64,000 nt of DNA. It comes from Candidatus Methylophosphatis roskildensis. GTDB lineage: Bacteria; Pseudomonadota; Gammaproteobacteria; Burkholderiales; Rhodocyclaceae. Shown here piece after piece: positions 1,117-57,100 of this stretch. A program made the position numbers and the translations under genes. Numbering within the stretch: the stretch's first letter is position 1; every line of letters starts with the position of its first letter. Where the stretch lies: positions 12,254 to 76,253 of the forward strand of contig JADJEV010000001.1 in the NCBI GenBank assembly GCA_016708905.1. The letters run 5' to 3'. The notes below the pieces were generated by a model. That model was not told the origin of the DNA, did not search any database, and worked only from the letters and a program-made list of their open reading frames with translations.

Positions 1117-1735
1117 CTTCGTACCTCAAAAAGACGGCCGGAAACCACCGGCCGCAAATCCCACTACAAGGAGGCTGATACAGGTTTCTTTACGACCGGC
1201 CCCACCGCTGCTTGAGCGCTGCGGGCAGGGTGGATCGGCGCTATCTGAATTAGTTTGTTAGTGCAATGGGTTAGCACGCAAGGCTGGACAAGCCCGGGAT
1301 TTCTCGGTATAACCCATGGGATGGAATCGATGAAACCCATGGCGCAAGTCCTATCGGAGCTTCAGGTACGGCCGGTAGAGCGCAGCGAGGAACAACGCTA
1401 TCGAGAGCAGATGGCGCGGCATCATTATCTGGGAGATCTCGCGAAGATCGGCGAGGCGATCTGGTATGTCGCAACCTGGCGCGGTCAGTGGGTCGCGCAA
1501 CTCAACGTCTCGGCGGCGGCCCTGAAATGCGGCGTGCGTGATCGATGGATCGGCTGGGACTTTCGCACGCAGTATGACCGACTCAAACTCATCGCCAACA
1601 ACAGTCGCTTCCTGATCCTGCCCGAGTGGCACCGGCCGAATATTGGCTCACGGGTGCTCTCGCTCACTGAACGGCGCATCGCCCGCGACTGGCAGGCGCG
1701 CTTTGGTCATCCCTTGCTCCTGCTGGAAACCTTTG

Positions 1736-3337
1736 GGTGTAACTCTCATACTGATGCCCGGCGAGTTGGAAGCGGCACGACGTTTTCGGGGAAGTGAATC
1801 TCGCGCCGGTATTGAGCCGAGACGAGCTGCCACGCGGCATCGAAGCGCTCGCTCTGCGCCAGCGCACGGAAGGTGAGGATCGCCTGCCCGCCGTCGATGC
1901 TCCAGCGTTGCCCCGAGCGTTTCATGCGCTGGGTCACCAGCGTCTTGCAGGCCGCCTCCACCACGCCCGAGCCGATCGGCAGATTCTCGGCACGTAGTCG
2001 CGCATAGTCCATGCGTGCGCGGTTGCGCCGGAAGTACGCCAGTTCCTGCTTGAGCGCCTTGCAACGGCGCTTGCGGCTGTGATGGTAGGCGAGCGTGCGG
2101 ATCACCTTGCCCACGCCGTCCTCGGCCTTGAGCAGCAGATGGCGGTATTCCTTGAAGCGGGCCTGCGCCTTAGGGGACGTTTCACCATAGACATGACCGA
2201 AGGCCCGCCGCAGATGTTCCGCGGCGTGGTAGAAGTCCACCACTTCCTCGCCTGGGGGCAGTTCCTTGGCGAGGAACTCCCAGTTGTCGCGCGCCCCATC
2301 GGCCACCTTGACCAGTCGTAGTTGCGGTTGGCTCGCGAGCGCATGTTCGACTTCGGCCACCAGTTGGCGCTTGAGTGTGCACTTCTTCGGCTCGGGCATG
2401 CGCGCATGACGCACCGTGCGCAGCCGCTCGCCGGCCCCGTCATAGTGGCTCAGCGTGCCGCAGCCCACTTCGCGAAATCCCGCTGGCCCCTTGGTGGGCT
2501 TGCCCTGCTGTCGGCTTTGTTCGCGTTTGTCCTCGCGCTGCCCGTCTTTCATCGGCGCCATCACCCCGTCCAGCGAGACCGCAAGCACGGCGGCCTGGGC
2601 GAGGGGCGGCGCCTGCTCGCGCAACTGGCTCTCCCACTGCATACGATGTTGTTCCCACTTCGCGTCAATCGCCTTGGGCAGTCGGTCCAGGCTGCTGCGT
2701 GAGGGGTGCATGCCGCCCAACTCGCCAAACAACTGCTCGCCTTCGGCCGGCGTCAGATGGGTGACCACCCACAAGCCCATCCGCGCGGCCAGCGGGGTGA
2801 AGAACCCCTCGACGATCCCAGCACGCAACTCCAGCGGGCATTCGCTCTGCCCGTTGGTGCCCGCCGCACGGTAACGGTGGCGCAGCACCTTCACCGGTCC
2901 GGCCGCCGTCATGTATTCGCCGTAGCCGCTGACCACCCGTCGGTAGAGCACCCCCTCGATCCTCAGCACCGGGAGCGTCACGTCCAGCCGCGCCAGCTCT
3001 TCGCCGACAAACTCGCGCTCGGCTTCGGCAAAGCGCCGGCGCACTTCGCGCTCGAACGCTTCGAACCCTTCTCCATGGTCACTTGCGCAGCGCCTGCGCC
3101 CCTCGATAAAACACAATAGGCTCTCCAGCGCCTTGCCGCCGACACGCGCCTTTTCCTTGAGCGCGCCAACTTTCGCTACACTTTCCATGGGCCAGCCTCC
3201 GGTGGTTGTTTCTCGCAAATCCAACCGCCTTCTATCACGAGGTTGGCCCACCCCCCATGCCAGACAAATTTCGTCTGGACACACTATCAGCATACTCATA
3301 AGCCATTGATTTTATTATCAACGGTAGACCTACACCC
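1736..3337 (-). mobile_element. ISKra4-family insertion sequence
   Basis: 8-9 bp target duplication AAACCTTT(G) at 1727-1735 and 3338-3346. Terminal inverted repeats are (G)GGTGTAACTCTCATACTGAT and the reverse complement of ATCAACGGTAGACCTACACCC. Removing the element restores the interrupted DUF4338 reading frame. Confidence 0.8.
1746..3188 (-). CDS. ISKra4-family transposase
   Basis: ATG at 3188 is preceded by GGAGG. Translation MESVAKVGALKEKARV.. ..SLDGVMAPMKDG.. ..VKVADGARDNWEF.. ..VDFYHAAEHL.. ..LPIGSGVVEAACKTLVTQRMKRSGQRWS matches my memory of ISKra4 transposases. Confidence 0.85.
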   Translation of the reverse strand: MESVAKVGALKEKARVGGKALESLLCFIEGRRRCASDHGEGFEAFEREVRRRFAEAEREFVGEELARLDVTLPVLRIEGVLYRRVVSGYGEYMTAAGPVKVLRHRYRAAGTNGQSECPLELRAGIVEGFFTPLAARMGLWVVTHLTPAEGEQLFGELGGMHPSRSSLDRLPKAIDAKWEQHRMQWESQLREQAPPLAQAAVLAVSLDGVMAPMKDGQREDKREQSRQQGKPTKGPAGFREVGCGTLSHYDGAGERLRTVRHARMPEPKKCTLKRQLVAEVEHALASQPQLRLVKVADGARDNWEFLAKELPPGEEVVDFYHAAEHLRRAFGHVYGETSPKAQARFKEYRHLLLKAEDGVGKVIRTLAYHHSRKRRCKALKQELAYFRRNRARMDYARLRAENLPIGSGVVEAACKTLVTQRMKRSGQRWSIDGGQAILTFRALAQSERFDAAWQLVSAQYRREIHFPENVVPLPTRRASV

Positions 3338-4825
3338 AAACCTTTGTCGATCCGCGGCGATTTCATGGCGGCGTCTATCGCGCGGCCAACTGGACGGAAC
3401 TGGGGCTCACTCAAGGCTACCGGCGCACGCGGCAAGGCTACAGCGGCGAGATTGACGCGCCCAAGCGCGTGTTTGTGCGTGCCTTGCACCGGGCCGCCCG
3501 AGCGCAATTGACGCATCCTGAGCGCAATCACCTCCAACTCACGGGAGCCCCAAAATTGATGCTGAGCGCTGAGCAGATGCGCGCGCTGCCGCTGTGCTTC
3601 ACCACCGTCACCGACCCGCGCCGCCGGCAAGGGCGCCGCCACCGCCTGCCCGTGGTGCTGGGCATTGCCGCGGGCGCCATCCTGTGCGGCATGCGCGGCT
3701 ACAAGGCCGCCCATGACTGGGCCGAAAGCCTGGGGCAAAAGGCACGTGAGCGCTTTGGCTGTCGGCGCGAGAAGGGGCGTTATGTCGTCCCCAGCGAATT
3801 CGTCATCCGCGATTGCCTGGTGCGCATTGAACCGGACACGCTGGATCGCGCGCTCAATGTCTGGAACCAGGCGTGGGCAAAAGACGACCGGGCGCTGGCG
3901 ATGGATGGTAAAGTCATGAAGAACGCGATCGACGCGCAGGGCTATCAAACGCACATCCTGAGCGTGATCGGCCATGAGTCGAACACCTGCCACACCCAAA
4001 AAAGTCGGGACATTGCCCGTAGCCGGCAGCGATGAGCAAAAGCGTACCAACGAGATCGGCATGGCCATCCCCGTGCTCGATGGCTGCGCGCTCGCCGGCA
4101 AGGTGGTCACGGCCGATGCGCTGCTGACCCAGCGCACACTGGCAGCGTATCTGATCGGGCGCAAGGCCCACTATAGCTTTACCGTCAAAGGCAACCAGCC
4201 CGGTCTCGAACGCGAAATCGCCTTGCTGTTTGAAAAGCGGGGCGATCCTGACTTCGTCGACGTGACCCCGCCTGACCATGGCCGCATCGAGACCCGACGC
4301 ATCTGGTGCAGTACGGCGCTCAATGCCTACCTCGATTTCCCTCACGTCGGCCAGGTGTTCATGATCGAGCGCGAATCAATCAAGAAGAAAACCGGCGAGT
4401 CATCGCGTGAGATCGCGCTGGGCATCACGAGCCAGTCGCCGCACGAGGCCTCGGCGCAAGAGGTCTTGGCGATCAATCGCGGCCACTGGACCATCGAGAG
4501 CACCCATTACATCATCGACTGGAACTACGACGAGGATCGCTCTCGCATCCGTACCGGCCACGGCCCGGAAAACATCACCCGCCTGCGTCGCTTCGCCGTC
4601 GGCATCCTCAAGTCCTTTCAGAGCACCGAGTCTATCGCCGAGATGATGCGCAAACTTTGCTTCAATACCCGCCTCGTCTTCGACTACTTGCGCATGACCA
4701 ATAACTCAGCTTCCAGACCACGGGTTATTTGAGAACAAATTTACCGTGGCGCTGCGGGACGGGCGGATTTACAGCCCGCCCGCTTTGGCGTAAGGTTTCA
4801 CCGCTGACCTGGGGGTCCTGACACA

Positions 4826-49447: not shown

Positions 49448-50841
49448 CATCGCGTATGCCGAGGACCCTGTACACCTCCAGAGGGACAGCGGTCGACATC
49501 GGCCGCGAACTTGGCAAGGGCGGCGAGGGCTCAGTCTTTGATGTGCCGTCCTCGTCCAGCCAGGTCGCCAAGCTTTACCACAAGGCGCCGGACGGTAAGA
49601 AACAGGCCAAGTTGAGCTTCATGGCGTCAACAGCAGACGCCCAGCTGCTCAACTACGTCGCCTGGCCACAGGAGACACTACATCCCAGCCGAGGTGGCCC
49701 TGTCATCGGCTTCCTAATGCCGAAGGTGTCCGGCAAGAACCCAGTGCATATGGTGTACAGCCCGGCGCATCGCCGGCAGGACTATCCGAAGGCGGCTTGG
49801 GACTTCTTGCTGTACGTGGCGCGAAACATCGCGGCCTCGTTCAAGACTGTACACGCGCACGGCCACGTTGTTGGCGACGTCAACCAGAACAGCTTCATGG
49901 TGGGCCGCGACAGCAAGGTCGTCCTCATCGACAGCGACTCGTTCCAAGTCAACGCCCGCGGGACCATGCACCTCTGCGAGGTGGGCGTCTCGCACTTCAC
50001 TCCGCCCGAGCTCCAGACGTTGTCGTCGTTCGATGGGTTTAAGCGCACGACGAACCATGACAACTTCGGGCTGGCACTTCTGATATTCCATGTGCTATTC
50101 GGCGGCCGGCATCCGTAATCGGGCGTTCCCCTTCGCAATGGCGTAGGAGACGCGCTCGAGACGGACATCAAGAATTTCCGCTACGCCTATGCTCGGGACA
50201 ACCAAGCCCGTGGCTTCAGCCCGCCGCCACGCTCCATCCCGGTCTCTATGCTTCCCGATGCGATGGAGTCCATGTTCCATTTCGCGTTCACGGAGAAGGG
50301 AGCATCGGACGCTCGACCAACGGCACAGCAGTGGGTGGCCGCGCTAGACAGCGTCCGGAGCCGCCTCAAGAAGTGCAGCGCATCCGACATGCACGTCTAT
50401 CCAGACCGCTTGGCGTCATGCCCGTGGTGCTCTCTGGAAAGGCAGGGGGTGGCGTATTTCATCGATCTGGGCACTACCTTTACCCAGACGACCACAGGCT
50501 TTGTGCTTACTCAGAGCTTGTGATTTATTCCCCGGCGCGGCCGGAAGGCCACACAAGGAACATTGGCGCCGGGTTGTTCGGCGCAAGATGGATTTCGCAT
50601 TGCCTACCCCGCTATCGAGCGTTCATTTGGCGGATTTCCACCGATTCGGGCCCTCAAACCGGCAATCCGGCGATGCCGGACGAACCTGTCCCTATCCCGA
50701 GCAATTGCGGCGCCAGTGCCGCCATGCGCATCAGGTTGTGCGCCAGGGCGAAGATCGTGTCCCTCCGGCAATGCGGCATAGATTCTGCGGTTCGCGCTGA
50801 TTGGTACGGGGGTTGGCAATGAAGTAGTTTGCATTTGGGTC

Positions 50842-51759
50842 TTGCGTTCCAAATCCATCTCGGCTACTCTGCTGCGCATGCAGGGAACGCTGAGCTACCG
50901 TCACCGTGTGATCACCGACGAGGACCTCGTCTTCATTCGCAGTCTCATCGCCGAACATCCAGGCTTGAGCCGGAGGCAACTGTCCAAGAAGCTGTGTGAG
51001 GCCTGGAATTGGGTGCAGGCCAACGGCGCACCGCGCGACATGGTGTGTCGCGGGTTGATGCTGATGCTCCATCGCGAAGGTCTGATCGAATTGCCGCCGG
51101 TACGCTGGGTGCCGCGCAATCCGATGGTCGATCGCAGCCAACCGCAGCGGATGAGCGTGGATGAGGCGCCGCTGCATGCAAGATTCGCAGATCTTGGTCG
51201 GCTGGAGGTGCGCCAGGTGCGGCGTACGCCCGATGAGGCCTTGTTCAACAGCCTGCTCAAGCAGCACCACTATCTGGGTTACACGCAGCCGGTGGGGGAG
51301 CATCTGAAGTACCTGGTCTTCGCTCAGGGACGGCCGGTGGCCTGCGTGGCATGGTGCTCGGCACCGCGCCACCTGGGTAGCCGCGATCGGTTCATCGGCT
51401 GGGACAAGCAGGCACGGCGGCAGAACATCGGGCTGCTCGCCTACAACACGCGATTCCTCGTTCTGCCCTGGGTGACGGTGCCACACCTGGCCTCGCACAT
51501 TCTGGGACGCATGGCGCGCGTGCTCTGCGCCGATTGGCAGCGCCTGTACGGCCACCCGATCTATTTTGTCGAGACCTTCATCGACCCGCAGCGTTTTCGC
51601 GGGACCTGTTACCGAGCAGCCAACTGGATTGTGCTGGGGAGCACTACCGGGCGCGGCAAGGACGCACCGACCCGCCAGGCCAACCGCTCGATCAAGCAAG
51701 TGCTGGGCTACCCGCTGGTCAAGGAGTTCCGCCAGCGGCTCTCGGAAGTCCTCGTGTGA
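50842..51759 (+). CDS. DUF4338-domain protein (DruA-like domain) encoded inside the IS66 unit
   Basis: 305 aa, ..LLKQHHYLGYTQPVGEHLKYLVFA..RDRFIGWD..YNTRFLVLPW..YFVETFIDPQRFRGTCYRAANW.. Clearly homologous to the N-terminal part of the ISAs1 fusion at 1321. Confidence 0.75.
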   Translation: MRSKSISATLLRMQGTLSYRHRVITDEDLVFIRSLIAEHPGLSRRQLSKKLCEAWNWVQANGAPRDMVCRGLMLMLHREGLIELPPVRWVPRNPMVDRSQPQRMSVDEAPLHARFADLGRLEVRQVRRTPDEALFNSLLKQHHYLGYTQPVGEHLKYLVFAQGRPVACVAWCSAPRHLGSRDRFIGWDKQARRQNIGLLAYNTRFLVLPWVTVPHLASHILGRMARVLCADWQRLYGHPIYFVETFIDPQRFRGTCYRAANWIVLGSTTGRGKDAPTRQANRSIKQVLGYPLVKEFRQRLSEVLV

Positions 51760-53363
51760 AGCGCCCCGAATTCGTCAACGCCACTCAGGCACAGCTCGAC
51801 GAACTGCTGGCGCAGGCCAAGACGACATTCTCTGCCGAGCAATACGAACTGCTCGAAGGGGTGCTCGGCACCTTTGTGTACGTCATGCAGGCCTTGCAGA
51901 ACGCCAAGACCTCGATCAAGCGCTTTCGCCAGATGTTGTTCGGCGCGCGTACAGAGCGCAAAGCCAAGGTGTTCAAGGACCATGGCGAGCGCGCCGCCGG
52001 TGAGCCGCCTTCGGCTGAAACCGGTAACGCTGCGAAGCCTTCCCCGCCGTCGGCGGGGCACGGTCGCAATGGCGCACAGGCGTACTGCGGTTGCCCCGTG
52101 GTCGAGGTCAAGGTCGCCGATCTGCAACCGGGCGACCCATGCCCTGAATGCACCGAGGGCAAGGTCTATGACTCACCGCCAAGGATCCTCGTCAAGGTGC
52201 TCGGCCAGCCCCCGCTGGCAGCGACGCTCTACAAGCTGCGACAGTTGCGCTGCCGTCTGTGCGATGCGCGCTTCACCGCCTCCCTGCCCGAGGGGGTGAG
52301 CTTGCCCAAGTACGACCCGAGCTGCGCGAGCATGCTCGCCTTGCTTCGCTACGGCAGCGGCATGCCCTTCTACCGCCTCGAAGGCCTGCAGGCGAGTCTG
52401 AACGTCCCGCTCTCCGATGCCACGCAGTGGGACGTCGTGGCCAAGGCGGTACCGGGGCCACGCGCGGCCTTCAACGAACTGATCCGCCAGGGCGCACAGG
52501 CCCCGCTGCTGCATAGTGATGACACCCATGCGCAGATCCTCTCGCTGAGGGCGACACGCAGCCAGCTCGAGGCCGCCGGCCAGAGCCCTTCAGCCAAGGC
52601 GATCAACACCTCGGGTATCGTCGCCGTCCTGCCCGAGGCGCGCAAGGTGGTGCTGTTTTTCACCGGTCACCAGCACGCGGGGCAGAATCTGGCCGACGTT
52701 CTGGCGCAGCGGGCCCGGGATTTGGCCCCGCCGACCCAGATGAGCGATGCGCTGGCCTGCAACTTCGCCGGCGAGTTCAAAACGATCGTGGGCAAATGCC
52801 TGGCCCATGGCCGACGCAAGGTGCTCGAGCTGGTGGAGGATTTTCCCCAGCCGTGCCGCACCGTGATCGAGGTTCTGGCCAAGGTCTACACCGTGGATGC
52901 GCACTGCCGCGACGAGAAGATGTCCGCCGAGCAGCGCCTGCTCCACCACCAGGCCCACAGCGCCGAGCCCTTGCAAGGGCTGCATCGTTGGATGACGAAT
53001 CAATTCGAGCAGCACCTCGTCGAGCCCAACAGCAGCCTGGGTCAGGCCCTGCGCTACCTGCTCAAGCACTGCAGCGGACTCACCTTGTTCCTGCGCCAGG
53101 CAGGGGCGCCGCTGGATAACAATCTCTGCGAAAGAGTGCTCAAGCGGGTGATCTTGCATCGGAAGAATTCGATGTTCTACAAAACCAGCAAGGGGGCGGA
53201 GGTCGGCGATATCTACATGAGCCTCATCCACACCTGCGAGCTCTGCGGGGTCAACCCGTTCGAGTATCTGCAGGCATTGCAGATCCATGCGCAGAACGTG
53301 TTGACCCGGGCCGCCCTGTGGTTGCCCTGGAATTACCGCGAGCAGTTGGCACGCGCAGCCTGA
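51756..53363 (+). CDS. IS66-family transposase (TnpC-type)
   Basis: The GTG at 51756 overlaps the DUF4338 stop (GTGA). ..IKRFRQMLFGARTERK..CPECTEGKVYD..CRLCDARF..HSDDTHAQIL..CLAHGRRKV..DNNLCERVLKR..RKNSMFYKT.. Confidence 0.85.
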   Translation: MKRPEFVNATQAQLDELLAQAKTTFSAEQYELLEGVLGTFVYVMQALQNAKTSIKRFRQMLFGARTERKAKVFKDHGERAAGEPPSAETGNAAKPSPPSAGHGRNGAQAYCGCPVVEVKVADLQPGDPCPECTEGKVYDSPPRILVKVLGQPPLAATLYKLRQLRCRLCDARFTASLPEGVSLPKYDPSCASMLALLRYGSGMPFYRLEGLQASLNVPLSDATQWDVVAKAVPGPRAAFNELIRQGAQAPLLHSDDTHAQILSLRATRSQLEAAGQSPSAKAINTSGIVAVLPEARKVVLFFTGHQHAGQNLADVLAQRARDLAPPTQMSDALACNFAGEFKTIVGKCLAHGRRKVLELVEDFPQPCRTVIEVLAKVYTVDAHCRDEKMSAEQRLLHHQAHSAEPLQGLHRWMTNQFEQHLVEPNSSLGQALRYLLKHCSGLTLFLRQAGAPLDNNLCERVLKRVILHRKNSMFYKTSKGAEVGDIYMSLIHTCELCGVNPFEYLQALQIHAQNVLTRAALWLPWNYREQLARAA

Positions 53364-53388
53364 GCGCAGCGGCGCGCCCGGGCACGCT

Positions 53389-53748
53389 CTATGCGGCCAC
53401 GCTCAGCCGACGCCACGCCGGGGCCGCATTGGCGCGCGCCGGATCGCCCCCCATGAGCAGCAGTTGCAGCTCGCAGGCCTCGAGCGCCCGGCTCGGCTTC
53501 TCGCCGTCGGGCCAAAATGCGAACCGCCCGCTCGATAGCCGTTTCTGGCACAACCAGTAGCCTTGACCGTCATAGGTCAAAATCTTGATCGCCGTGCGCG
53601 CCCGGTTGCAAAAGACGAACAGGGCACCACTGAAAGGATCGGCCTCCAGGCGTTGTCGGCACGCGCCCACCAACCGATCGATTCCGGCACGAAAGTCGAT
53701 CGGCTCGACCGCCACCAGAATGCGCATGTGCGGCGTGATCTGGATCAT
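53389..53748 (-). CDS. IS66 Orf2 (TnpB)
   Basis: MIQITPHMRILVAVEPIDFRAGIDRLVGACRQRLEADPFSGALFVFCNRARTAIKILTYDGQGYWLCQKRL.. The ATG overlaps the tnpA stop. Confidence 0.85.
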   Translation of the reverse strand: MIQITPHMRILVAVEPIDFRAGIDRLVGACRQRLEADPFSGALFVFCNRARTAIKILTYDGQGYWLCQKRLSSGRFAFWPDGEKPSRALEACELQLLLMGGDPARANAAPAWRRLSVAA

Positions 53749-54167
53749 GCCGCACCCCAGAAGGCGCTGCACAGCCCAGCCAGGCCGGCAAGGCCATTGC
53801 CATTGAGTTCCACGCGCATCTTCGCCCCTCGCCCGTTCTCCAGCTCGACGGCACATTCGCACAGACTCTGCGCGCCAGGTGCCGGCGAAACCATCAACTC
53901 CACGAACCGCGGGCCGTCCTTCCCAGCGTCCGCCGCACTGACCTCGTGCTCCAGACGCTTCTTCAGCCTGTCGCGGTCGACGCGCAGCTCACACACCACG
54001 CGGTGCACCCCGTGTTCCCTGGCCATCTCTACCGCCGCCACCCACAAGCGCTCCGGAATATGTTCGCCGCGAACACGCCTCTCACGCCAATGCTTGAACC
54101 GCTCCCCTATCTGCGCCAGGCTCTCACCATGCCCCCTCGCTTGCTCGACCTTCGCCCTCTCGTCCAT
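53745..54167 (-). CDS. IS66 Orf1 (TnpA, HTH)
   Basis: 140 aa, ..IPERLWVAAVEMAREHGVHRVVCELRVDRDRLKKRL.. ..VELENGRGAKMRVEL.. Confidence 0.75.
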   Translation of the reverse strand: MDERAKVEQARGHGESLAQIGERFKHWRERRVRGEHIPERLWVAAVEMAREHGVHRVVCELRVDRDRLKKRLEHEVSAADAGKDGPRFVELMVSPAPGAQSLCECAVELENGRGAKMRVELNGNGLAGLAGLCSAFWGAA

Positions 54168-57100
54168 CAGTTGCTCTCCTCATCCGGTTGAACTCGCAGC
54201 TGAAGTTAGCAAGGACGTCGATCGATTTCATGCTGGCTTGCCGGAGGGACACCGAAGATCAGCATCACACATTTGACCTTTCCCAGCCCGCGCACTCGAA
54301 ACTGCTGCAATCCCCGATTGCGACTGTGCGCATTGACGCATTCGGCCGTTGCCGCCCGTCGCTTGTACAGGGCCTTCGCTTCATCCGTGCCCATCCGCTG
54401 GCGCCAAGCCGCCACTGCCTCGCTGTCGCGCGCCTTGGCCTGGTGCGGGTCGACCGTCTTGTCCTTCGGTTCGGGCACCGGCCCATAGACGCATGTGCTC
54501 TCACTGGCCCGCTCGATCTGCTCGTGACCGACATAACCGCCATCGACCAGCCAGGCTTCTGGTGCCCGCCCACAGCGCTCGGTGACCTGCTCGAGCATCG
54601 GCCCCATCTGTCCCTGATCGGTGCCGATGGTGGCCACATCAAGACCGACGATCACCAGACTGTCGGCATCAGAGGCCAGTTGTGGGTTGTAGGCCGGCCG
54701 GAAGCCGCCATCGCCCATCTTCATCACCGTGGCCTGGGCGTCGGTCATCGAGACCCGCGCTTGTTCGGCGGGCTTGCCTTGCCGCTGCTTGATCGCTTCG
54801 ATCTCGGGCAGCCGGGCCAGCGCCTGCTCCAGACGCTCTTGGCGTTGCTGCGCCGCCCGCCGCCGGGCCGCCTCCCGTGCCCGTTGGACCAGGGCCGGGT
54901 CGGCCTCCAGTTCGGCTTTCAACCGCGCCACGTGCGCGCGCGCCGCTTCCAGGCAGCTTGCCAGTTTCTCTTTGCGCCGAAACGAGCCGGCCCCGGCACT
55001 GGCGCGTACCCGCATCCCGTCCTGGGCCACCTGCTTGAGCTTGACCACCCCCGCGCCCATCAGGCTCGCAATGCTCACGCTCAGCAGTTCATCGAGCGCT
55101 TCACCGTGATCCTTGCGAAAGTCCGACAGCGTGTGGTGATTGACCTGCACACCACCACAGAGCCAGCGATAGGCGTCGTGCGCTTCGATCAGGCGGGAGA
55201 CTTCCCGCGCGCTGCCTACCCCGTCGAGCGTGGCGTACAGCCACAGCGAGAGCAAAATCTCCGGGGCGATCGCCGCGCGCCCGACACCGCCTTCGGCTAC
55301 CCGCACAGTTGCGTAGAAGCGCCCCAGATCCTGGCGCTCGACATAGGCCCAGACCAGTCGCGCCCGGTGCCCTTCGGCCAGCAGCGATTCAAGATCGCTG
55401 GCCCGAAATTCCATCTGCCCTCGGTTCGGTAACAGCACGCGCGCTCGGGTCTTCGTCATCTTCGCTGTCTCGCACCAAGGCCAGAGTACATTATGCCACA
55501 GACATCATCCGGGCGGGGGATTTTTTCACAGCCTCTCAGGTCTGGGCTGTGATCGAGGCCGTCGCGGCGCCGCCCACTCTGAGCATCCCGAGCCCGAGCG
55601 AATTCAAGGTCACCGCGCAAGCGCTGCCGGCTGGCGTCCCGGGGGCGGGCACCATCACCTTCTACCGCTTGCTTGCAGTGGGCATCGGCATCGCCATCGC
55701 GGTGGCGCCCCCCAAGGCCATGTTCTGGGGCATCGTGATCGGAGCCATCGGCTGGATCATCGCGGGAAGCGCTGGTTCGTCTGAACGCACGGCCGAGCGC
55801 TCGCGCCGCTCAACTGCACAACAGGCCGCGAAGAAGGAATACGACGAGCTGGTTGAGCGGGTACAGCGGGATGCTGGACCCGCAGGCTTTCAGGCTAAGC
55901 GAGCGGAGCTGTCCAAGCTTCGTAACGAATATCAAGCGCTGCCGCAAGCCGAGAGGCAGGAGCTGGACCACCTGCATTCCACGGCCCACGAGCGCCAGCA
56001 GCAGAAGTTCCTGGACACCTGTTTCATCGACAGTGCCTCAATTTCCGGTGTCGGTCCGGCGCGGAAGGCCGCGCTTCGGTCCTTCGGCATCGAAACGGCA
56101 GCCGACGTGAGCCGCAGCAAGGTGATGCAGGTACGGGGCTTCGGAGAAGGCCTCACCCGGGCGATGACGGACTGGAAGGCATGCTGTGAGAGACGGTTCG
56201 TCTTCAACGCATCAAACGCCGTCTCCGCTGCTGACCGTGACGCGGTTCGCTCCAAGTTCGGCGCCCGAAAGGTGAGCATCGAAGCTGCCTTGACCCGCGG
56301 AGCGGGAGAACTGCAAAACTTTAGGCAGCGTGCCACCAGCCAGATGGCCATGCTAAAGCCGCAGCTCGAAGCTTCAGCCAGGAAGCTTGCCCAGGCCGAA
56401 AAGGATCTGTCGGCTCTGTAGAGGAACGCCTGCGCGATGCGCCTCGCTTCGAAGAACGCTTGCAAGAAGTCGCCGCGCGGATGATGCTCGACCCACATCA
56501 GCGGTGTTTTGGTGGTTATGCATGGCTCGCGCGCGAGCAGCTGCTTTGGGGCGATGAGTTCAGCTTTGCAAATTTTGCTGACGGGTCGGCGCTAGAAATC
56601 TCCAAGGTCGGCAGCCCGCACAATGATGAGTACTCCCGGCGGAACCCCAACGGCAGGTCAGGCCGACGACTTGTCGGTGATCAACCTTCACGAACGGCTG
56701 CTCCACTCCGTCACCGGCCATAGAACCGCTGATTCCGCATCCGGCAGCTGAGGGTCGCGTCCTGCCGAAGCGGAAATGGAAAGCGGCCGTTCGGCGCGGT
56801 TTTCCAACGTGTGGCAGGAAACCGGCGGATAGCGGCCACAGCCGGCGCAAGACGCCACGGGCCGCAATCGCGGACGAGCTGGCCGAATGTCAATCGAGTT
56901 GAGCCGCAGGCCCACTGGATACCGGCATCGGTGACCCTCGATTTCGCGTCGCCGCTACGTCTCTTTGTGGCCGGATGCTGCCAGTGATCTCGCCATTCCC
57001 AAGTAGTGGTAATGGCCGACCTTGACTCATACTTTATTCGGTTGCATCCATAAGGTCGGTAGACCTGCGCGAAGGTCCATTCCATGATCTCGAAATCAAC

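What the first reader, a model, noticed from the sequence alone, without database searches (positions are those of the whole stretch)
50842..53363. A second DUF4338 gene is translationally coupled to an IS66-type transposase
Inside the IS66 unit, the DUF4338 ORF (50842-51759) ends in TGA overlapping the GTG start of the IS66 TnpC-type transposase (GTGA at 51756-51759). This is a classic coupling arrangement.

Together with the ISAs1 fusion at the other end of the window, the same domain is associated with two unrelated DDE transposase families within 64 kb. That argues for a recurrent functional partnership rather than chance adjacency.
Basis: partly seen in the sequence, partly recalled or inferred. 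Interest (0 to 1): 0.6.

Follow-up and report, generated by a model that had tools for sequence, protein, structure and literature searches.

The report
IS66 element with coupled Mom-like gene
A 3.5-kb jumping gene of the IS66 family carries, overlapping the start of its transposase gene, a strongly conserved extra gene for a DNA-binding domain joined to an enzyme fold most like phage Mu's DNA-modifying Mom; the same pairing recurs across many phyla and with other transposase families, which points to a helper function in transposition that I found described in no paper.

Summary
ORF 50878-51759 (Pfam DruA/DUF4338) ends in a TGA that overlaps the GTG start of the IS66 TnpC gene (GTGA, 51756-51759).

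Both genes lie in a complete 3,496-bp IS66-family element (50757-54252). It has 23-nt inverted repeats and an 8-bp target duplication (CGAAGATC). It also holds tnpA-tnpB on the opposite strand.

The pairing is not local:
- In 78 related loci from many phyla the DruA-like gene always sits directly upstream of tnpC.
- The start and stop overlap by 4 nt in about 40 of 63 scorable loci. Most others are within -8 to +5 nt.
- The DruA-like gene is under stronger purifying selection than the transposase (dN/dS 0.14-0.19 against 0.25-0.35).

In this genome all 39 DruA-domain copies sit in five IS types (two IS66, two ISAs1-like, one Tn5-like), either overlapping the transposase gene or fused to it.

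A confident model (pLDDT 94) shows a winged helix plus a GNAT fold. Its best solved match is phage Mu Mom, and five of Mom's seven proposed active-site residues are conserved. It is not a Druantia DruA orthologue.

Its role in transposition is inferred, not shown. No paper I could search describes the association. Earlier notes from this scan reached the same reading at other loci.

The parts
50749..50756 (.). Left copy of the 8-bp target-site duplication CGAAGATC
   Evidence: Read from sequence. The intact host IS at C3:898072-899596 holds this octamer once. RNA contigs join 50748 to 54253 with 8 shared letters.
50757..50779 (+). Left terminal inverted repeat GTGTCCCTCCGGCAATGCGGCAT
   Evidence: pair I1 (23 nt, 87% complementary to 54230-54252). 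The same IR consensus, GTGTCC(C/T)T(C/T)CGGCAAGC.TGCATGAA, is found in about 25 related loci.
50878..51759 (+). DruA-like gene (293 aa): N-terminal winged helix (residues 1-70) plus a Mom-like GNAT domain (about 100-290)
   Evidence: Pfam PF14236 at 1.7e-30. Homologues are typically 293 aa. AF2 model has pLDDT 93.8. Best Foldseek PDB hit is 8bv8, Mu Mom, E 5.5e-7. dN/dS 0.14-0.19.
51744..51748 (+). GGAAG Shine-Dalgarno-like motif inside the end of the DruA-like gene, 7 nt before the tnpC start
   Evidence: Read from sequence. A consensus resemblance only.
51756..51759 (+). GTGA: tnpC start codon GTG overlapping the DruA-like stop codon TGA
   Evidence: a 4-nt overlap in 39-40 of 63 related loci.
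51756..53363 (+). IS66-family DDE transposase tnpC (535 aa)
   Evidence: PF03050 at 8.4e-39. NCBIfam NF033517 scores 184.5 bits against a cut-off of 180.
53389..53748 (-). IS66 tnpB (119 aa)
   Evidence: PF05717 at 2.2e-28. NF033819 'IS66 accessory protein TnpB'. 55-100% identical in related loci.
53745..54167 (-). tnpA-like gene (140 aa); its stop overlaps the tnpB ATG by 4 nt (ATGA on the minus strand)
   Evidence: ORF. No Pfam, NCBIfam or PADLOC hit. Position, size and overlap match IS66 tnpA. Homologues precede tnpB in 60+ related loci.
54230..54252 (-). Right terminal inverted repeat
   Evidence: pair I1.
54253..54260 (.). Right copy of the target-site duplication CGAAGATC
50510..50756 (-). 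Context: one half of the IS1182/IS5-like host IS that the element split
   Evidence: 94% identical to C3:899596-899350.
54253..55539 (-). Context: the other half of the host IS, carrying its DDE transposase gene (54206-55459)
   Evidence: 97.5% identical to C3:899357-898072. Pfam DUF772, DDE_Tnp_1_6 and DDE_Tnp_1.

Best explanation
The DruA-like gene is an integral accessory gene of a large, widespread subgroup of the IS66 family. It is not cargo and not a piece of a Druantia defence system.

Its stop codon overlaps the tnpC start codon. Ribosomes finishing the DruA-like protein can therefore re-initiate on tnpC, so the two proteins would be made from one message in a fixed ratio and at the same place.

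The protein joins a winged-helix DNA-binding domain to a GNAT-fold domain. Its nearest solved relative is phage Mu Mom, an aminoacyl-tRNA-dependent transferase that modifies adenine in double-stranded DNA.

I propose that it acts beside the transposase on the element's DNA or its target as a catalytically active acyl- or aminoacyl-transferase, most likely directed at nucleic acid, and that this promotes or regulates transposition.

Shown:
- the anatomy of the element;
- conservation of gene order and of the overlap;
- stronger purifying selection than on the transposase;
- the fold and the conserved Mom-type residues;
- fusion of the same module to other transposase families.

Inferred:
- that coupling occurs at the ribosome;
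- that the protein is catalytically active;
- its substrate;
- that it is needed for transposition.
For: Anatomy of the element:
- Inverted repeats, 8-bp duplication and empty site.

Conservation of the pairing:
- The DruA-like gene is directly upstream of tnpC in 78 loci from many phyla.
- 53 loci are colinear (tnpA-tnpB-druA-tnpC). 13 are convergent like the window.
- 4-nt overlap in 39-40 of 63 loci; most others between -8 and +5 nt.
- Shared inverted-repeat consensus and independent 8-bp duplications.

Selection:
- The DruA-like protein is the best conserved of the four proteins in 31 of 40 loci. Mean identities are 70% (DruA), 51% (TnpC), 67% (TnpB) and 42% (TnpA).
- dN/dS is 0.14-0.19 for DruA against 0.25-0.35 for tnpC in seven of eight comparisons; in the eighth, the 97%-identical L031, the order is reversed (0.60 against 0.34) on very few substitutions.

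Own genome:
- 39 PF14236 hits, all inside five IS types.
- The unfused types also have overlapping stop and start. Type D has tnpC then druA with a GTGA overlap. Type A has GTGA or a 13-nt overlap.
- All five PF03050 hits belong to a DruA-carrying IS type; four have the DruA gene beside them and one is a fragment without it.

Fusions elsewhere:
- DruA::Tn5-like: 2,703 hits, and the top 120 all share this architecture.
- TnpC(IS66)::DruA, DruA::DDE_5 and DruA::DDE_Tnp_1.

Fold and active site:
- AF2 model with pLDDT 93.8. Best PDB match is 8bv8, Mu Mom, E 5.5e-7 and 18% identity; the other hits are GNATs.
- Pfam Mom PF25680 matches below threshold in 33 of 42 family members.
- A colinear profile alignment puts Mom H58, Y59, S124, D149 and Y159 on the conserved H131, Y132, S206, D236 and Y245. 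The Mom residues are from PMC13219725.
- The Aravind laboratory calls DUF4338 a GNAT (PMC10853773).
Against: - No experiment links the gene to transposition.
- The sequence similarity to Mom is weak: hhalign probability about 3% and pairwise E 0.012, and Pfam Mom scores are below the gathering cut-off.
- Generic GNATs follow Mom closely in the fold search, at E about 1e-6 to 1e-5.
- Mom's HTH-like insertion, which is essential for its activity, is absent.
- Two of the seven Mom residues (R111, R151) align only to neighbouring arginines.
- The element is single-copy in this genome, so recent activity here is not shown.
- RNA contigs cover parts of the genes but none spans the junction, and DNA carry-over cannot be excluded.
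- About a quarter of the scorable loci lack the exact 4-nt overlap, and a few have gaps of 60-160 nt.
Confidence: 0.6

Rival explanations
1. Protein-directed acetyltransferase. The GNAT domain acylates the transposase itself or a host protein, such as a nucleoid protein or a defence factor, and so tunes transposition. It would not modify nucleic acid.
For: Most characterised GNATs act on proteins or small molecules, and these make up nearly all fold-search hits after Mom. Fusion or coupling to the transposase would put the enzyme next to such a substrate.
Against: The best structural match and the conserved residue set are Mom-like. The usual acyl-CoA pyrophosphate loop (Q/R-x-x-G-x-G/A) is replaced by VPHLASH (by eye). 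The partners are unrelated transposases with no common surface. The N-terminal winged helix suggests a nucleic-acid context.
Confidence: 0.18
2. Non-catalytic partner. The winged helix plus GNAT-like domain serves as a DNA-binding, target-choosing or ligand-sensing subunit (sensing acyl-CoA or charged tRNA). It would regulate the transposase without transferring any group.
For: In other IS families it sits at the transposase N-terminus, where DNA-recognition domains usually are. Mom's essential insertion is absent. Many GNAT-like domains have become binding modules (general knowledge).
Against: Five Mom-type active-site residues are invariant or more than 90% conserved across representatives that share only about 35-45% identity with the window's protein. 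The ISAs1 fusion keeps the GNAT core but drops the winged helix. No common target motif appears among eight duplications.
Confidence: 0.15
3. Cargo gene. The DruA-like gene is a defence or anti-defence passenger that benefits the host or the vector, as Mom protects Mu DNA from restriction. It would merely ride on IS elements.
For: The Pfam family is named after a Druantia defence protein, and the same GNAT is fused to DndF. Mom is an anti-restriction enzyme.
Against: The gene has an overlapping stop and start with the transposase gene in either order. It is fused in frame to transposases of several families. This genome has 39 copies, none with Druantia neighbours. PADLOC DruA models do not match. 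Cargo is normally variable, but here it is the most conserved gene of the element.
Confidence: 0.07
4. Programmed frameshift. The overlap serves to make a DruA-TnpC fusion protein by -1 ribosomal frameshifting, as in IS3 or IS1, rather than two coupled proteins.
For: The TnpC frame is the -1 frame and is open for 375 nt upstream of the GTG in the window. Fused versions exist in other IS families.
Against: There is no slippery heptamer in the overlap. In relatives the TnpC frame is closed 3-12 nt upstream of the start in 12 loci. Several loci have non-overlapping TAG-ATG junctions.
Confidence: 0.03

Closest known systems
Canonical IS66-family insertion sequences (IS66, IS679, ISRm14: tnpA-tnpB-tnpC), as defined by ISfinder (from my own knowledge; ISfinder could not be queried)
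   Same: DDE transposase TnpC (PF03050, NF033517). TnpB (PF05717, NF033819). A small tnpA whose stop overlaps the tnpB start (ATGA). 8-bp target duplication. Terminal inverted repeats of about 23 nt. Size about 2.5-3.5 kb.
   Different: A fourth, highly conserved gene (winged helix plus Mom-like GNAT) lies immediately upstream of tnpC and overlaps it. In the window and 12 relatives the tnpA-tnpB pair is inverted, so it converges on druA-tnpC. The inverted repeats start with GTGTCC rather than the family's usual GTAAGCG.
ISBst12 group of the IS66 family (tnpC only)
   Same: The type D elements of this genome (C3:1051353-1054024 and copies) have tnpC without tnpA or tnpB, and GTAAG-type inverted repeats.
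   Different: Type D carries the DruA-like gene downstream of tnpC with a GTGA overlap. The window's element keeps tnpA and tnpB.
Phage Mu Mom (PF25680; PDB 8bv8), a glycyl-tRNA-dependent transferase that modifies adenine in dsDNA (PMC13219725)
   Same: GNAT fold, and the best structural match (E 5.5e-7, 18% identity). Colinear alignment over about 180 columns. H58/Y59, S124, D149 and Y159 have identical conserved counterparts. Neither has the glycine-rich CoA loop.
   Different: Below Pfam's Mom threshold. No HTH-like insertion (Mom residues about 175-209). An extra N-terminal winged helix of about 70 residues plus a linker. Coupled to a transposase, not to Com or a phage late operon. Substrate and donor unknown.
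DruA of type I Druantia (PF14236 is named after it)
   Same: Shares the Pfam domain (profile positions 32-222 of 297).
   Different: No match to PADLOC's DruA models. No DruB-E neighbours. About 290 aa and IS-borne. Multi-copy.
Transposase partners made by overlapping or fused reading frames (IS3/IS1 OrfA-OrfAB; IS21 IstA-IstB; IS66 TnpA-TnpB)
   Same: An accessory protein encoded next to the transposase, with overlapping stop and start codons.
   Different: Those partners are DNA-binding or ATPase helpers. None is a GNAT-fold enzyme, as far as I know.

Membership tests
IS66 family of insertion sequences | DDE transposase TnpC of the IS66 type | tested here: met
   PF03050 at 8.4e-39. NF033517 equivalog scores 184.5 bits against a cut-off of 180.
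IS66 family of insertion sequences | Accessory TnpB (IS66 Orf2), preceded by a small tnpA with overlapping stop and start | tested here: met
   PF05717 and NF033819. The 140-aa ORF 54167-53745 ends in an ATGA overlap with tnpB. This tnpA-like protein has no family-model hit.
IS66 family of insertion sequences | 8-bp target-site duplication and terminal inverted repeats | tested here: met
   CGAAGATC on both sides and 23-nt inverted repeats. 8-bp duplications in at least 8 related loci. The repeat tip is GTGTCC, not GTAAGCG.
IS66 family of insertion sequences | Colinear gene order tnpA-tnpB-tnpC | tested here: not met
   In the window tnpA-tnpB are on the minus strand, converging on druA-tnpC. 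53 relatives are colinear but have druA inserted between tnpB and tnpC. This is therefore a variant subgroup.
Druantia type I (DruA) | Match to curated DruA models | tested here: not met
   PF14236 domain present, but no PADLOC model matches at E <= 0.01.
Druantia type I (DruA) | Operon with DruB, DruC, DruD and the DruE helicase | tested here: not met
   The neighbours are tnpC, tnpB and tnpA inside inverted repeats. All 39 copies in the genome lie in IS units.
Mom family (PF25680) | Score above Pfam's gathering cut-off | tested here: not met
   15 bits against 27.1 for the window protein. 33 of 42 relatives match below threshold, best E 6.5e-5.
Mom family (PF25680) | Mom-like GNAT fold | tested here: met
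   8bv8_B is the top Foldseek hit: E 5.5e-7, TM 0.58 normalised to Mom, 202 aligned columns.
Mom family (PF25680) | Active-site residues H58, Y59, R111, S124, D149, R151, Y159 (PMC13219725) | tested here: inconclusive
   Five align to identical conserved residues (H131, Y132, S206, D236, Y245). R111 and R151 fall next to R192 and R239. The alignment itself has low statistical support.
Mom family (PF25680) | HTH-like insertion (residues about 175-209), essential for activity | tested here: not met
   A gap of about 23 residues at that place in the profile alignment. The model goes directly from strand 251-255 to strand 274-279.
GNAT superfamily | Core fold of mixed beta-sheet with helices | tested here: met
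   230 PDB matches at E <= 0.001; all but a few of the 50 listed are GNATs (the rest include malonyl-CoA decarboxylase). Consistent with PMC10853773.
GNAT superfamily | Acyl-CoA pyrophosphate-binding loop Q/R-x-x-G-x-G/A after strand 4 | tested here: inconclusive
   The sequence there is V-P-H-L-A-S-H with no glycines (consensus, read by eye). Cofactor binding was not tested.

The most novel reading that the evidence does not exclude
The IS-borne DUF4338 proteins are Mom-type transferases that chemically mark nucleic acid, perhaps using charged tRNA as the donor. DDE transposases of many unrelated families (IS66, ISAs1, Tn5-like and other IS4, IS701-like) have repeatedly recruited this module, either as a coupled or a fused subunit. 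DNA modification would then be a general, so far unrecognised step in the control or targeting of bacterial transposition. The same chemistry would explain the unknown role of DruA in Druantia defence.
Probability: 0.25. Interest if true: 0.85.

Novelty: new variant of a known kind. Interest (0 to 1): 0.6.

Why it matters
IS66 is one of the largest IS families, yet the roles of its accessory genes are unknown. Here a fourth gene proves to be the most conserved part of a very widespread subgroup: 11,594 clusters at 50% identity match the family profile. The same module is attached to several unrelated transposases.

If it is an active Mom-like enzyme, transposable elements would carry their own nucleic-acid-modifying activity. 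That would be a new layer of transposition control. It would also give a concrete biochemical hypothesis for DruA of Druantia.

The family is absent from 14 model genomes. This may be why it has escaped study.

A practical point follows. Annotation as 'Druantia protein DruA' in IS-rich genomes does not indicate a defence system.

Tried and rejected
- **PDB sequence search.** A profile of close homologues (A1) found nothing even at E <= 10.
- **hhalign of A1 against Mu Mom.** Not significant (probability 1%). The more diverse A2 gave a longer colinear alignment but still low probability. A forced global alignment was meaningless.
- **First AF2 model.** The shallow alignment left the C-terminal 60 residues unmodelled (pLDDT 70), and its fold search did not list Mom. 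It was replaced by the second model.
- **Mom relatives for a profile.** A viral-contig search gave only sequences 85-100% identical to Mom, useless for a profile.
- **PADLOC and NCBIfam.** Neither has a model that fits the DruA-like or tnpA-like proteins.
- **Plasmid collection.** Only two records, both Ca. Thiodictyon, so no informative curated IS names.
- **Promoter and terminator scan of the element.** No promoter-like site and one terminator-like site, no more than the shuffles give.
- **Programmed frameshift fusion.** Considered and rejected.
- **Metatranscriptome contigs.** Too sparse to show co-transcription across the junction.
- **Common target motif.** None evident among eight 8-bp duplications.
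- **Literature.** Searches for DUF4338 or DruA with transposase or IS66 found no paper describing the association. ISfinder and TnPedia could not be consulted.
Full report
**1. The observation**

- The frame 50842-51759 (+) is open and matches Pfam PF14236 (DruA, formerly DUF4338) at E 1.7e-30. The frame that starts with GTG at 51756 and ends at 53363 matches PF03050 (IS66 transposase) at 8e-39 and NCBIfam NF033517 above its cut-off.
- The sequence reads ...CTC GTG TGA in the first frame. The G at 51756 begins GTG AAG CGC in the second frame.
- A GGAAG motif lies 7 nt upstream of the GTG.
- One correction: more than 100 close homologues are mostly 292-301 aa long (293 aa is the commonest length) and begin at the equivalent of ATG 50878. 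The gene is most likely 50878-51759.

**2. The unit it belongs to**

- A BLAST of 50000-56000 against the whole assembly shows that 50510-50756 and 54253-55539 are the two halves of an IS1182/IS5-like element. That element is intact at C3:898072-899596, and the two halves share 8 bp.
- The 3,496 bp between them (50757-54252) carry 23-nt terminal inverted repeats and are flanked by CGAAGATC on both sides.
- Metatranscriptome contigs that join 50748 to 54253 show the same empty site.
- Inside the element, druA-tnpC read rightwards. On the other strand, a 140-aa tnpA-like gene (54167-53745) overlaps by ATGA a tnpB gene (53748-53389; PF05717, NF033819).
- This is a complete IS66-family element with an unusual convergent layout. 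It is single-copy in this genome.

**3. Is the pairing local or general?**

- The DruA-like protein has thousands of close homologues. All 8,000 scored candidates pass E 1e-5, and the top 120 are 79-100% identical.
- Three look-ups of contigs that encode them showed the same four genes in the same layout in different flanks, with a 4-nt overlap of druA and tnpC each time.
- A scan of one genome per species found 578 relatives. The best 80 loci come from Burkholderiales, Acidobacteriota, Planctomycetota, Gemmatimonadota, NC10, Chloroflexota, Desulfobacterota, Actinomycetota and others.
- tblastn with the window's four proteins gave this census:
  - 53 loci are colinear, tnpA-tnpB-druA-tnpC;
  - 13 are convergent like the window;
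  - 12 are on contigs too short to tell.
- The convergent form is thus a derived rearrangement of a four-gene IS66 subgroup.
- Both forms share the inverted-repeat consensus GTGTCC(C/T)T(C/T)CGGCAAGC.TGCATGAA. At least eight loci show their own 8-bp duplications, with no common motif.

**4. The junction**

- Of 63 loci whose TnpC aligns from its N-terminus, 39-40 have the 4-nt ATGA/GTGA overlap. Most of the rest lie between -8 and +5 nt, and a few have larger gaps.
- The start is ATG in most loci and GTG in the window and its 97%-identical relative. The neighbouring bases differ.
- So the overlap, not the sequence, is conserved.
- A frameshift fusion is unlikely. The window has no slippery heptamer, and in 12 relatives the TnpC frame is closed within 12 nt upstream of the start.

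**5. Selection**

- Across 40 loci with all four proteins, mean identity to the window is 70% for DruA-like, 51% for TnpC, 67% for TnpB and 42% for TnpA-like. The DruA-like protein is the most conserved in 31 of the 40.
- Pairwise dN/dS against eight convergent relatives is 0.14-0.19 for the DruA-like gene and 0.25-0.35 for tnpC. The nearly identical pair has too few changes to be informative.
- The gene is therefore functional and more constrained than the transposase.

**6. The wider partnership**

This 5.0-Mb genome has 39 PF14236 matches. They fall into five groups, each a repeated unit with its own ends:

| Type | Size | Copies | Layout |
|---|---|---|---|
| A | 2.8 kb | about 15 | DruA-like ORF, then a transposase with the ISAs1-typical DDE_Tnp_1_assoc domain (split into two frames); stop and start overlap (GTGA or 13 nt) |
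| C | 2.6 kb | 6 | 756-aa DruA::Tn5-like transposase fusion |
| D | 2.7 kb | 3 | IS66 tnpC, then druA, with a GTGA overlap; no tnpA or tnpB |
| E | 3.5 kb | 1 | the present element |

- All five PF03050 matches in the genome belong to types D or E.
- Beyond this genome, the Tn5-like fusion has 2,703 hits, and the 120 best all show the same architecture. NCBI labels some of them simply 'IS4 family transposase'.
- A profile search of 1.84 billion cluster representatives found 11,594 family members at E <= 0.001.
- Long members among the best 150 are fused to IS66 TnpC (DruA at the C-terminus), Tn5-like, DDE_Tnp_1 and DDE_5 transposases, and to HTH_29.
- In a sample of 301 genomes of the same phylum, 21 have the domain, mostly 1-3 copies on small contigs. 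None of 14 model genomes has it.

**7. What the protein is**

- PADLOC's DruA models do not match, and there are no Druantia neighbours. It is not a Druantia component.
- A first model from a shallow alignment was poor at the C-terminus. A second, from 70 sequences most of them only 33-46% identical to the query, reached pLDDT 93.8 and pTM 0.80.
- That model shows a winged helix (residues 1-70), a linker, and a GNAT domain.
- Foldseek against the PDB ranks 8bv8, phage Mu Mom, first (E 5.5e-7, 18% identity, 202 columns). Many ordinary GNATs follow at 1e-6 to 1e-5.
- Pfam's Mom model matches 33 of 42 family members below threshold.
- A profile alignment to Mom is colinear over 183 columns but statistically weak. 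It places Mom's H58, Y59, S124, D149 and Y159 on H131, Y132, S206, D236 and Y245. These five are among the seven residues that the 2026 structure paper (PMC13219725) proposes for the active site.
- Their counterparts are invariant or more than 90% conserved in the family.
- R111 and R151 fall next to the conserved R192 and R239.
- Mom's HTH-like insertion is missing.
- Mom transfers glycine from Gly-tRNA to adenine in dsDNA.
- The Aravind laboratory had already called DUF4338 a GNAT (PMC10853773).

**8. Mechanism proposed**

- Shown: a conserved accessory gene whose stop overlaps the transposase start, or which is fused to the transposase, across families. It encodes a winged helix plus a Mom-like GNAT with an apparently intact active site.
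- Inferred: termination-reinitiation delivers both proteins together. The GNAT is active, and its substrate is nucleic acid at or near the transposition complex.
- The rivals are protein acylation, a non-catalytic sensor or targeting subunit, cargo, and a frameshift fusion. They are weighed in their own section.

**9. Expression**

Four metatranscriptomes from the study whose DNA runs hold the element contain short contigs identical to parts of druA, tnpC and tnpA. None crosses the junction, and DNA carry-over cannot be excluded.

**10. Novelty**

- No paper in the searchable library links DUF4338 or DruA to transposases or IS66. ISfinder could not be checked.
- Earlier AI notes from this scan describe the same module at other loci and reach the same reading. 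They are leads, not independent evidence.
- I re-derived the main points here. I added the four-gene and convergent architectures, the junction census, the selection comparison and the residue mapping.

**Verdict.** This is a new variant of a known kind, an IS66 subgroup with a coupled Mom-like accessory gene. Interest 0.6.

Noticed in passing
window 50757-54252; loci L031, L034-L039, L041, L043, L045, L048-L050, L102: The convergent layout (druA-tnpC facing tnpB-tnpA) recurs in 13 loci with different flanks, while 53 relatives are colinear (tnpA-tnpB-druA-tnpC). Both forms keep the same inverted repeats. How the tnpA-tnpB module was inverted and moved to the other end is unexplained. L102 (Phycisphaerae; TnpC only 29% identical) may be an independent case.
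   Followed up: partly
own genome, e.g. C1:635844-638654 (type A), C5:254782-256694 (type B), C2:254655-257272 (type C), C3:1051353-1054024 (type D): 39 PF14236 copies in a 5.0-Mb genome, all inside five IS types. Sampled genomes of the same phylum have 0-3. This genome is an extreme outlier for these elements.
   Followed up: partly
window 1225-1735 and 3338-4751: The type B element (GNAT core fused to an ISAs1-type transposase) is split in the window by an insertion of about 1.6 kb (1736-3337) that holds a 517-aa ORF on the minus strand.
   Followed up: no
L031 (wastewater contig) against window 50749-50756: The 97%-identical element in L031 sits in a different context (near a DUF4158/Tn3-like fragment). 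Its duplication, GAAAGATC, resembles the window's CGAAGATC. This may be chance or a weak target preference. Six other duplications show no such motif.
   Followed up: partly
L119 (Ca. Thiodictyon syntrophicum plasmid pTs485, record 282572-287344): A DUF4338 gene and an 'IS4 family transposase' gene lie inside a split DUF2235 gene. An IS91 transposase and an integrase gene separate them. This looks like another DruA-carrying IS, interrupted by a second insertion.
   Followed up: no
P0362, P0341, P0350: Some long family members have partners that are not obvious transposases. P0362 has MORN repeats. P0341 has an HTH_29/HTH_23 C-terminus. P0350 has a 170-aa unannotated N-terminal extension.
   Followed up: no
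L092 (3.7-kb contig in a 'Methanobacteriota archaeon' MAG): A complete colinear four-gene element (DruA 62% identical) sits on a short contig binned to an archaeon. This is either cross-domain spread or a binning error.
   Followed up: no
window 54112-54253 against C3:816864-817004: The right-hand 142 bp of the element (inverted repeat plus the tnpA upstream region) has a 98%-identical solo copy elsewhere in the genome. It may be a remnant of a second copy.
   Followed up: no
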